Origin: a virus | Lineage: Duplodnaviria > Heunggongvirae > Uroviricota > Caudoviricetes | DNA length: 20,639 nucleotides | Direction: 5' to 3' (one strand) | IMG/VR virus record: IMGVR_UViG_2648501143_000006 | Shown here: positions 1-3,000 of the stretch, in pieces | Layout: every line of letters starts with the position of its first letter | How positions within the stretch are numbered: position 1 is the first letter of the stretch | Position numbers: made by a program

Positions 1-3000
1 CTATTTCTTCTCTGTAATTTTTACACTGTTTTCCAACTGCTTGATGCTGACCTGCGGGGTCGGCAACTCCTCAGGCATGGTTCCGCCAAGTTCCTGAATG
101 GTTTGCCTCACCTTGCTACCCACGTCAAAGTGTGTGGTATTAGCTTGCTGTGCTGCCTCAACCAATTGTTTGTTATGTTCTTTCAACTCATTTCTCAGAA
201 ACAGACGCTTTTCGTCTTCACGAAGTTGCTTAAATGCTTCATCGTCAGCAAGCTCCTGCCGTCGGGTCTGGATAGCAAAATAAGTCTGCCCTGCCGCAAT
301 GACCGGTTTCGCGGGGTCGCCGTTTTGTACTACCAGGTAACAGGCATAGCGGGAGAGTACGATGTCTTTTAATGCTCTTTTGGCATTTGAGCCAATTTTG
401 ACCATATCGAGGATCTCCTCGAAATGGTCATCAATTGTGTGACCACTGTTCTCACAGGCCTCTTTGGCGCGCGTTAATACAGGTATAAAGTGACGATACT
501 CTGAATAACCCAGTAGTTTCCCAAGTTGTCTTGCTGACCATTGTTCTGCTCCGTTTGCATTAATCAGTTTTATCTCTTCAAAAGGTTGATGATGTTCGTT
601 CATTGCCCACTCCATGTGATATCGATTGCAAAGAAAGTAAATCTGTAACTGTATTTATATACAGTTGTGAGTATCTCACGTTCTCAGTGTGCTGGGCAAA
701 AAAACATCGCAAAATCTGGAGCAGGCACGCAAAACAGAATTGAAGTTGCGGGGAAGAAAAATGCCGCTCTGTTTGAGTGGGCGGCATTTGTGAAGGCTGA
801 AAAGTAAGAATTAGTGTTACAAGTTACTCAATATTGAATCTGTTTGTAGAGTATTGGCTTCAATGCCGCATTGTAGCTGGTTTCTTCCTAATGCGATTTT
901 TGATTATGTACACCCTTATGTACACGGTTTTTTCGGGTGCTTTGGTCAGAAGCCATTGCCTACATCCCTCACGATCGAGGTGTGTAACCATGTTCAGGCT
1001 TGTTGTCCTGCGCGCGCGTATTGCTCGTGAAATTGCTGTACCCAATAGTGATGTCCGAAAAAACCTCCGTTCTCACATGAAACAGCCATATGCAACTGGT
1101 AACTGAACAGACTGGTAGACCGTTCGTTCAGTAAATACCTGATATTTTCGCCAACGAGAAATTGCGTTGGCTGGCAGGGTGCAAATTTGCACGATGGACT
1201 AACCCATTGATTCTTTCGAAAACCCCCATTGGGGGAAAAGCCTAACCCATTGGTTTTCCCACAATCCTCAATTTGAGGAATGTACCTAAAACCATTTTTA
1301 TAGCTCCGATCCCTTCAAAGTGAGGGGTAATTTGCCAAAACAGAGAGAGCATTACTGTCTCTGGCAATCTTTATCGCGATAACGCCTGAAGTACCCTCTA
1401 GCTTCCTCATCCATACCAAGAGCCGAATGAGTCCGCTTAACTGCCTGTCTTAAATCTCCGAATCTGTCTGTAGTTGCTGGTGGGCGTGCCGCCTTACGGA
1501 TACATTCAGAGCGTCTGTTTGCTGCATGTTCACGTTCTTTATCGCCATCTGCCAGCATCATGACTTCTGCCCATCGTGCGGCAGCTCTCCGGTATAGCCC
1601 TTTTGACTCCAGCTCTTCAGCTTTCCTGTCCCTTATCATTTCTGCCTCTCAGATTATATAGATAAGCAAAAAGGTGTTGGTTCAGTTGGTTCAATTTGTA
1701 AAGATCGTTGTTTTTATTATATTTTTTCTAAAATATTGAACCAACATCAACTCATTTTGAACCAACACAGCCCAGCTCTGAACCAACAACACAGCGATAG
1801 CTTTGTGATTGGTCCGTTATTTTCTGGCTGATATTTGAGCGTATAACAGTGTTATACAGTGGTATACTGTATGGATATTACTCACTGATATGGTCTTTGC
1901 AATGAGCAAATCTAATCTGGTCGCGTTCCGCATCCCATCTGAATTGCAGGATGAGTTTAATCGGTCTGTTCTCGCTTCTGGAGGGGATAAAACCTCCTGG
2001 CTTGTTGATGCGATTCGCATGAAGCTGGGACAGCCGGAAAAGTCTATTGATTCACGAATGCTTGGGCTGGTGGAGCGCATGGAAAAAGCTGCTGCGTCGC
2101 TTATTGCCGGAAAGCCGAACATCCCACCAAAGCCATATAACGAAACGGCAGTTATAAAGATCATTGCCGATACCATCCGACAGGGATTTGATAATGGGCG
2201 TGTGATAGCGGAACGGCTCAATGAAGCAGGCTATCAAACAAAAGCTGGTAAAGCATGGGATAAAGACATTTACAGCGCGTGGAAGCGTCAGGGAAGCAAT
2301 GCTGAAAAGTTATCAGTGGCTCTAAGAATGTAGCCCTATATTTTGATTTTTAGACGTGCTTGGAGAACAGGTAGCGTGCCATCACTAAAACAATGCCAAA
2401 GACTTCAGCGAGGGTTCCCCCCATAAATAGGTTTATAACGAAATCACTAAAATGGAGCAGTTTTGCTCCAATAAGGACAAAAATCCCATTCATAACTAAT
2501 AGCTGGCCTATCAGAATGCCGATAAACCACCGAGCAAACATTTTTTTCAGTTTTGTGTCTGTTTTTAAATCTTTTGTTTTTGCACGCTGATGGGCTTTGG
2601 CTGGATCCTCATCATTTAGATGTGTGAGGGTTTTTGCTGATGGTGATGAGCCAGAGGCTGGTTCACCTCTGGCTTGTCTTGCCGCTTGCTTTAGTTTTTC
2701 AGATATAGCGTAAGATCTAGACGTCATTACTCATCGAAGCCCTAAATTCTTTAGGCGATAACGTATAGCATCATCGGATACACCAAAATAGGAAGCCATC
2801 ATTACTGGTGCATATCCTGCATTGTTGAGGCGTCGAACCTCTTTTTCTGGCATGAGAAGACATGCTGCAAAGTTATTGGCGAATATTTCTTCGCTGTCTA
2901 CACCTTGGCTTGCCAGTTTTCCGCGGTAATCAACAAACTCATATTCAAGTGGCTGACCGTTCTCAGTTCGTTTGACGTAATGCCCTAACTCATGCGCACA

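What the first reader, a model, noticed from the sequence alone, without database searches (positions are those of the whole stretch)
603..664. Perfect LexA box upstream of the dinD-like gene
CTGTATTTATATACAG matches the CTGT-N8-ACAG SOS-box consensus, placing this antirepressor-like gene under direct SOS control. The encoded protein is shorter than the ~274 aa I recall for chromosomal DinD, with an apparent internal deletion after AAQQA, so it may be a prophage-borne variant.
Basis: partly seen in the sequence, partly recalled or inferred. Interest (0 to 1): 0.35.

Follow-up and report, generated by a model that had tools for sequence, protein, structure and literature searches.

The report
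Known dinD SOS box, truncated allele
This is the long-known LexA (SOS) operator of the chromosomal E. coli gene dinD, here in front of a common natural allele that has lost 74 internal codons; it is ordinary and not carried by a prophage.

Summary
CTGTATTTATATACAG lies at window 649-664. The 20-mer at 647-666, read on the gene strand, is AACTGTATATAAATACAGTT, which is base-for-base the published E. coli K-12 dinD SOS box. The gene (window 1-603, minus strand) is dinD itself, at its canonical chromosomal position beside yicG. dinD is a classic LexA-repressed, damage-induced gene and a standard SOS reporter.

The protein is 200 aa rather than 274 aa. A 222-bp in-frame deletion between 9-10-bp direct repeats (ACAGCAAGC[T]) removed residues 155-228. 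This allele is already annotated in NCBI. Its exact junction is present in 343 of 5,426 complete E. coli genomes.

The allele is not prophage-borne. A ~19-kb integrase-bearing island sits next to dinD, inserted in the 3' end of yicC, but dinD lies outside the island's att repeats. The short allele also occurs without the island, and the full-length allele occurs with it.

The deleted segment is one of the two most conserved stretches of the DinD family, so the allele is probably functionally impaired.

Side observations: among 80 species, a LexA box upstream of a dinD homologue occurs only in Escherichia/Shigella and Citrobacter, and many homologues sit inside type I restriction-modification loci.

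Verdict: already known, low interest.

The parts
647..666 (-). LexA operator (SOS box) of dinD: AACTGTATATAAATACAGTT on the gene strand; the CTGT-N8-ACAG core is at 649-664
   Evidence: Identical to the K-12 dinD box (PMC3009722 Table 4).
1..603 (-). dinD coding sequence, 200-aa short allele (ATG at 603-601, TAG at 3-1). An alternative in-frame ATG at 615 gives 204 aa.
   Evidence: NCBIfam NF008573 at 330 bits and Pfam Bro-N on residues 10-105. RefSeq annotates the same CDS as dinD, WP_001356259.1.
610..613 (-). Shine-Dalgarno GGAG, 6 nt before the ATG at 603
   Evidence: Read directly from the sequence.
670..699 (-). Candidate sigma-70 promoter (inferred): -35 TTGCCC (699-694), 18-nt spacer, extended -10 TG-A-GATACT (678-670). 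The predicted start would fall at about 663, inside the LexA box.
   Evidence: My relaxed scan found this as the best candidate. The stricter tool scan found none. The GTGAGATAYT block is shared with the yicC-linked dinD upstream regions of Pectobacterium and Yersinia. No transcription-start data were checked.
142..151 (-). Deletion junction: the single remaining copy of the direct repeat ACAGCAAGC(T). 222 bp (codons 155-228 of K-12 dinD) are missing between window 142 and 141.
   Evidence: The exact 44-nt junction is present in 343 complete E. coli genomes. 2,461 further genomes match only 32 nt running through the repeat, consistent with full-length alleles whose second repeat copy is the 10-bp form ACAGCAAGCT (an inference from match lengths, no such allele was read).
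34..49 (+). 16-nt CAACTGCTTGATGCTG, complementary to the dinD 3' end and shared with tisAB RNA
   Evidence: The sequence is given in PMC2577331 and is present unchanged in the window.
756..787 (-). Hairpin followed by a T-run: probable yicC terminator, retained between the island and dinD
   Evidence: RNA fold -12.4 kcal/mol, z-score -3.6. The same sequence follows yicC in island-free strains.
824..842 (-). Island boundary: att-like copy CAGATTCAATATTGAGTAA of the yicC 3' end. Homology with island-free chromosomes stops at 842.
   Evidence: The partner copy CAGATTCAGAATATCGAATAA lies at the real yicC stop codon beside the integrase gene in L002.

Best explanation
The site is the canonical LexA operator of the chromosomal E. 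coli gene dinD. A LexA dimer bound to AACTGTATATAAATACAGTT overlaps the probable transcription start just downstream of the -10 element and keeps dinD off. After DNA damage, RecA-stimulated LexA self-cleavage frees the promoter and dinD is strongly induced. In this strain the regulated gene is a natural in-frame deletion allele: a slip or recombination between two 9-10-bp direct repeats removed codons 155-228. The product keeps the N-terminal Bro-N domain and the C-terminal 46 residues, but lacks one of the two most conserved stretches of the family, and is therefore most likely functionally impaired. The neighbouring ~19-kb island is an independent insertion into the 3' end of yicC and does not carry dinD. 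Shown here: the sequence identity of the operator, the gene's identity and locus, the deletion's anatomy and frequency, and the independence of deletion and island. Taken from the literature for the identical K-12 sequence: LexA dependence and induction. Inferred: the promoter position and the loss of function of the short protein.
For: The operator and its flanks are identical to K-12 and to the published dinD box. It scores 25.2 bits on a K-12 SOS-box matrix. The LexA dependence of dinD was confirmed by RT-qPCR in lexA(Def) and lexA(Ind-) strains (PMC3009722). dinD is listed among genes with a known SOS box (PMC6590174). Its mRNA rose by log2 4.5 and its protein by log2 5.3 after ciprofloxacin (PMC11002266). 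dinD-lacZ is used as an SOS reporter (PMC10327210). The locus is yicG-dinD-(island)-yicC in the near-identical genome 19SZHZ803Rt, and yicG-dinD-yicC in K-12 and CUVET21-147. The deletion is 222 bp between ACAGCAAGC repeats. The junction is in 343 of 5,426 genomes and the missing segment is present in 4,326. The 200-aa protein is already named DinD in NCBI and was seen on at least 1,000 contigs. In 79 homologues from many phyla, residues 155-228 have a mean top-residue frequency of 0.87 and no gaps. They include the invariant stretch STELAANLFRATQ, and the whole block ILDHMGSTELAANLFRATQ is invariant or nearly so.
Against: No experiment was done on this strain. The stricter consensus promoter scan found nothing, so the geometry of operator and promoter is inferred. 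The short allele stays in frame, keeps an intact operator and Shine-Dalgarno, and persists in hundreds of genomes, so it might retain or have changed function rather than lost it. No usable structure was obtained for the deleted region.
Confidence: 0.93

Rival explanations
1. The gene is a prophage- or island-borne dinD paralogue, brought in with the adjacent mobile element and placed under SOS control as an antirepressor.
For: A ~19-kb element starts 240 bp upstream of the gene. It carries an integrase, a P4-like primase, an AntA/AntB antirepressor, PerC, ImmA/IrrE and P22-type ejection proteins. DinD has a Bro-N domain, which is common in phage proteins. The family is clearly horizontally mobile across phyla.
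Against: dinD lies outside the island's att repeats (window 824-842 and the yicC stop). The gene, its operator and the 240 bp upstream are collinear with island-free chromosomes. The identical short protein occurs without the island, and the island occurs with full-length dinD. Matches to the operator segment occur once per genome and always on the chromosome.
Confidence: 0.02
2. The 200-aa allele is a functional, selected variant (for example a Bro-N-only or dominant-negative modulator) rather than a decaying gene.
For: The reading frame, Shine-Dalgarno, operator and C-terminal 46 residues are intact. The allele is frequent: 343 complete genomes and at least 1,000 contigs. Other in-frame deletions hit the same central region (259-, 232- and 208-aa variants), which could reflect recurrent selection.
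Against: The lost segment holds many of the family's invariant residues. dinD gives no megablast match at all in about 690 of 5,426 complete genomes, and the literature describes it as dispensable (PMC2577331), so relaxed selection is the simpler reading. A deletion between 9-10-bp repeats is a neutral mutational mechanism, and its frequency may only reflect clonal expansion.
Confidence: 0.2
3. The palindrome is a chance AT-rich match with no regulatory role.
For: CTGT-N8-ACAG is short, and 0.22 matches per window are expected by chance.
Against: The full 25-nt site is identical to an experimentally LexA-dependent K-12 promoter. It scores 25.2 bits. The 46-nt operator segment matches at >=99% identity in 3,164 E. 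coli genomes.
Confidence: 0.01

Closest known systems
E. coli K-12 dinD (pcsA) promoter/operator, a classical SOS-regulon member and the basis of dinD::lacZ reporters
   Same: The 25-nt operator region, the Shine-Dalgarno, the start codon and the first 154 codons are the same (one SNP between box and ATG, and a few synonymous changes). The chromosomal position beside yicG is the same.
   Different: A 222-bp in-frame deletion of codons 155-228, an R237S substitution (K-12 numbering), and a 19-kb island inserted between the upstream region and yicC.
DinD protein family (NCBIfam NF008573; PADLOC phage-defence candidate PDC-S13)
   Same: Passes the equivalog cutoff (330 against 242 bits) and hits PDC-S13 at 2.5e-78. 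The Bro-N domain is intact.
   Different: It matches the profiles in two stretches and lacks the conserved central block. All 79 other family members compared are 262-306 aa with no gap there. Most family members elsewhere have no LexA box, and 32 of 80 lie next to hsdM of type I restriction-modification systems.
LexA-controlled phage antirepressors (for example those of the Gifsy prophages, PMC3121763)
   Same: A LexA box directly upstream of a small gene whose product has a domain common in phage regulators.
   Different: dinD is chromosomal, lies outside the mobile element, and has not been shown to act on any phage repressor. Only the abstract of PMC3121763 was seen.

Membership tests
E. 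coli LexA (SOS) operator | 16-mer CTGT-N8-ACAG palindrome with an AT-rich spacer close to the TACTGTATATATATACAGTA consensus | tested here: met
   Strict pattern at 649-664. 25.2 bits on a matrix of 17 K-12 boxes whose own range is 13.3-28.2.
E. coli LexA (SOS) operator | Overlaps or abuts the promoter of the regulated gene | tested here: inconclusive
   The best candidate promoter (TTGCCC, 18 nt, TG-n-GATACT) ends 3 nt before the box, but the stricter scan found none and no transcription-start data were consulted.
E. coli LexA (SOS) operator | LexA binding and LexA-dependent damage induction | not testable with these tools
   Shown in the literature for the identical K-12 sequence (PMC3009722; PMC11002266), not for this strain.
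DinD (NF008573 equivalog) | Whole-protein HMM score above the curated cutoff | tested here: met
   330.2 bits against a cutoff of 242.
DinD (NF008573 equivalog) | Full-length architecture, including the conserved central block (K-12 residues 155-228) | tested here: not met
   The match splits into two stretches. 74 residues are absent, although they are gap-free in 79 homologues. It is an orthologous but truncated allele.
DinD (NF008573 equivalog) | Orthologous chromosomal position (yicG-dinD-yicC) | tested here: met
Prophage- or island-borne cargo gene | Lies between the element's att repeats and is co-inherited with the element | tested here: not met
   The att copies are at window 824-842 and at the yicC stop, and dinD lies outside them. 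All four combinations of allele and island exist.

The most novel reading that the evidence does not exclude
SOS control of dinD is a recent, lineage-specific domestication of a horizontally mobile gene associated with type I restriction-modification systems (PADLOC defence candidate PDC-S13). In E. coli that gene is now decaying or being remodelled through recurrent in-frame deletions of its conserved core, of which the 200-aa allele is the commonest. On this reading 'DNA-damage-inducible' describes only the Escherichia/Shigella and Citrobacter copies, and the family's primary role lies elsewhere, for example in phage defence.
Probability: 0.35. Interest if true: 0.3.

Novelty: already known. 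Interest (0 to 1): 0.08.

Why it matters
It matters very little for the biology of SOS regulation, because this operator is a textbook one. There are two practical points. About 6% of complete E. coli genomes carry a dinD lacking one of its two most conserved stretches (and about 13% give no dinD match at all), so results on DinD as a RecA modulator in K-12 cannot be assumed for all strains. These natural alleles are also ready-made material for dissecting the protein. In addition, the gene name over-generalises: most DinD-family genes in other bacteria have no LexA box and sit in restriction-modification loci.

Tried and rejected
1) The tool's consensus promoter and terminator scan of 560-900 found nothing. 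A relaxed scan and an RNA fold gave one candidate promoter and the yicC terminator hairpin.

2) Searches of PDB sequences with K-12 DinD and with a 29-species profile gave only insignificant hits with E > 0.4, so no solved relative was found by sequence.

3) An AlphaFold2 model of full-length DinD from the only alignment the tool rules allowed (9 near-identical rows) had mean pLDDT 55, with residues 150-186 and 194-274 below 50. It cannot be used to judge the deleted region, so no fold search was run.

4) The homologue search returned mostly identical E. coli sequences. That was useful for frequency and naming but not for diversity.

5) I looked for a third att-like copy that would place dinD inside an older element and found none in L002.

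6) Uranga et al. 2011 (PMC3190988) is not held. Its claim is cited second-hand from PMC4849656.

7) My first query for the deleted segment was mis-placed, so I repeated it with the correct coordinates.

Full report
**Observation.** The sequence CTGTATTTATATACAG is at window 649-664.
- The strict pattern CTGT-N8-ACAG occurs twice in the 20,639-bp window against 0.22 expected from dinucleotide-preserving shuffles.
- I built a log-odds matrix from 17 other K-12 SOS boxes listed in PMC3009722. On it, the 20-mer at 647-666 scores 25.2 bits. The training sites span 13.3-28.2 bits, and only three sites in the window exceed 12 bits.
- The adjacent ORF runs on the minus strand from the ATG at 603-601 to the TAG at 3-1 and encodes 200 aa. 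An in-frame ATG at 615 would add four residues. A GGAG at 613-610 sits 6 nt before the ATG at 603.

**What it is.** The gene is dinD itself, at its usual place in the chromosome.
- Megablast of window 1-1100 against 5,426 complete E. coli genomes finds the region in 4,738 of them, annotated as dinD.
- In K-12-type chromosomes the order is ligB-yicG-dinD-yicC-rph.
- In the near-identical genome 19SZHZ803Rt the order is yicG-dinD-[19-kb island]-yicC.
- The protein passes the NCBIfam DinD equivalog NF008573 (330 bits, cutoff 242) and carries a Pfam Bro-N domain on residues 10-105.
- In a three-way DNA alignment, the operator and the sequence around it are identical to K-12. The only difference between the box and the start codon is one SNP.
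- On the gene strand the site reads ACAACTGTATATAAATACAGTTACA, exactly the dinD entry in Table 4 of PMC3009722.

**How it works.** Each step is marked with its basis.
- Literature, for the identical K-12 sequence:
  - dinD is listed among the genes with a known SOS box (PMC6590174).
  - Its LexA dependence was confirmed by RT-qPCR in lexA(Def) and lexA(Ind-) strains (PMC3009722).
  - Its mRNA and protein rise by more than 20-fold after ciprofloxacin (PMC11002266).
  - dinD-lacZ is a routine SOS reporter (PMC10327210).
- Inferred here:
  - The best sigma-70-like candidate is TTGCCC (699-694), an 18-nt spacer, and an extended -10 TG-A-GATACT (678-670). It ends 3 nt before the box, so bound LexA would cover the start site.
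  - The stricter tool scan reported no promoter.
  - The GTGAGATAYT block is shared with the yicC-linked dinD upstream regions of Pectobacterium and Yersinia.
- Protein function: the only reported activity of DinD is inhibition of RecA filaments (Uranga et al. 2011, cited in PMC4849656). That paper is not held here.

**The short protein.** K-12 DinD is 274 aa, and the window allele lacks residues 155-228, directly after ...VEAAQQA.
- At the DNA level 222 bp are missing. In the K-12 allele the missing segment is bounded by the direct repeat ACAGCAAGC, of which one copy remains at window 151-143.
- A further 2,461 genomes match only 32 nt running through the repeat. This is consistent with full-length alleles whose second copy is the 10-bp form ACAGCAAGCT; it is an inference from match lengths, and no such allele was read.
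- This anatomy fits replication slippage or short-homology recombination.
- The exact 44-nt junction is found in 343 of 5,426 complete genomes. The missing segment is present in 4,326.
- The 200-aa protein is already in NCBI as 'DNA damage-inducible protein D' and was seen on at least 1,000 contigs.
- Other in-frame deletions affect the same central region: variants of 259, 232 and 208 aa.

**Not prophage-borne.** Homology with island-free chromosomes ends at window 842.
- Window 824-842 holds CAGATTCAATATTGAGTAA, a copy of the yicC 3' end. Its partner, CAGATTCAGAATATCGAATAA, is at the true yicC stop codon beside the integrase gene at the far end of the island. dinD is therefore outside the element.
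- The yicC terminator hairpin (787-756; -12.4 kcal/mol, z-score -3.6) remains between the island and dinD.
- All four combinations of allele and island exist:

| dinD allele | Island | Example |
|---|---|---|
| Short | Absent | CUVET21-147 (same protein accession, WP_001356259.1) |
| Short | Present | This window; 19SZHZ803Rt |
| Full-length | Absent | K-12 |
| Full-length | Present | SCU-306 |

**Likely consequence of the deletion.** I fetched DinD homologues from 80 species and aligned 79 of them.
- Residues 155-228 have a mean top-residue frequency of 0.87 and no gaps, as high as the 106-154 block and higher than the Bro-N region (0.70) or the C-terminal tail (0.73).
- They include the invariant stretch STELAANLFRATQ; the whole block ILDHMGSTELAANLFRATQ is invariant or nearly so.
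- Removing this core most likely impairs the protein.
- dinD gives no megablast match in about 690 of the 5,426 genomes, and the literature describes it as dispensable (PMC2577331). Neutral decay is therefore the simplest reading.
- I could not get structural support. PDB sequence searches were empty, and the AlphaFold model from the only permitted, shallow alignment had pLDDT below 50 across most of the C-terminal half, residues 150-186 and 194-274.

**Comparison across species.** A LexA box within 300 bp upstream of the gene is found only in four of the 80 loci:
- E. coli and Shigella (25.2 bits).
- Two Citrobacter species (21-23 bits), where the gene sits at a different locus, downstream of ibpB and upstream of a membrane-transporter gene that I did not identify with any tool.
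- The other 76 loci score at most 11.2 bits, including yicC-linked copies in Pectobacterium, Yersinia, Rahnella, Morganella and Providencia.

The family is 66-84% identical across distant phyla. Thirty-two of the 80 homologues lie next to hsdM, often as hsdM-dinD-hsdS. The family also matches the PADLOC defence candidate PDC-S13 and a DinD::HsdS fusion model; such a fusion has been described in Bibersteinia (PMC4996451). SOS control is therefore a feature of a few enterobacterial lineages, not of the family as a whole.

**Verdict.** The deletion is real, but it is a common and already annotated allele, and the prophage idea is refuted. Already known; low interest.

Noticed in passing
window 9474-9493 (with 9299-9460 and 4624-9282, minus strand): There is a second LexA-type box, AACTGTATAAAACAACAGTT (strict CTGT-N8-ACAG; 18.6 bits). 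It follows a perfect TATAAT and lies about 15 nt before the Shine-Dalgarno and ATG of a 53-aa ORF. Downstream come DUF2824 (which I recall as P22 gp14-like; not tested), P22_gp7, Inj_translocase (which I take as gp20-like) and a 701-aa ORF. This would be an apparently SOS-controlled P22-type ejection-protein cassette inside a P4-like island.
   Followed up: partly
window 843-20639: A ~19-kb integrative element is inserted in the 3' end of yicC. It carries a tyrosine integrase, a Toprim/DUF5906 primase, AntA/AntB, an Ash-family protein, PerC, an ImmA/IrrE peptidase and P22-type ejection proteins, with no capsid genes. About 180 complete E. coli genomes cover its dinD-proximal end.
   Followed up: partly
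loci L004-L083 (DinD homologues): DinD is 66-84% identical across very distant phyla (Chlamydiae, Campylobacterota, Geobacter, Kiritimatiellia, a Firmicutes MAG). In 32 of 80 species it lies next to hsdM of a type I restriction-modification system. It matches the PADLOC candidate PDC-S13.
   Followed up: partly
loci L025 and L030 (Citrobacter), about 57 nt before the start codon: An apparently independent LexA box (CACTGTAAAAAYATCCAGTA, 21-23 bits) lies upstream of dinD at a different chromosomal locus, downstream of ibpB. Klebsiella, Kluyvera, Scandinavium and Pluralibacter copies at the same locus lack it.
   Followed up: partly
proteins P0111, P0118, P0110 (E. coli DinD variants): Further in-frame deletions occur in the same central region of E. 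coli DinD, giving proteins of 259, 232 and 208 aa.
   Followed up: no
E. coli complete genomes (collection-level): About 690 of 5,426 complete genomes give no megablast match to the dinD region, so dinD is not universal in E. coli.
   Followed up: no
L008 (Photorhabdus heterorhabditis), upstream flank of dinD; compare window 1890-2333: A 63%-identical homologue of the island's 147-aa ORF lies directly upstream of the Photorhabdus dinD, on the opposite strand. This suggests that related islands occupy the site next to dinD in another genus.
   Followed up: no
window 34-49: The 16-nt stretch complementary between tisAB RNA and the dinD 3' end (CAACTGCTTGATGCTG, PMC2577331) is retained in the short allele.
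   Followed up: yes
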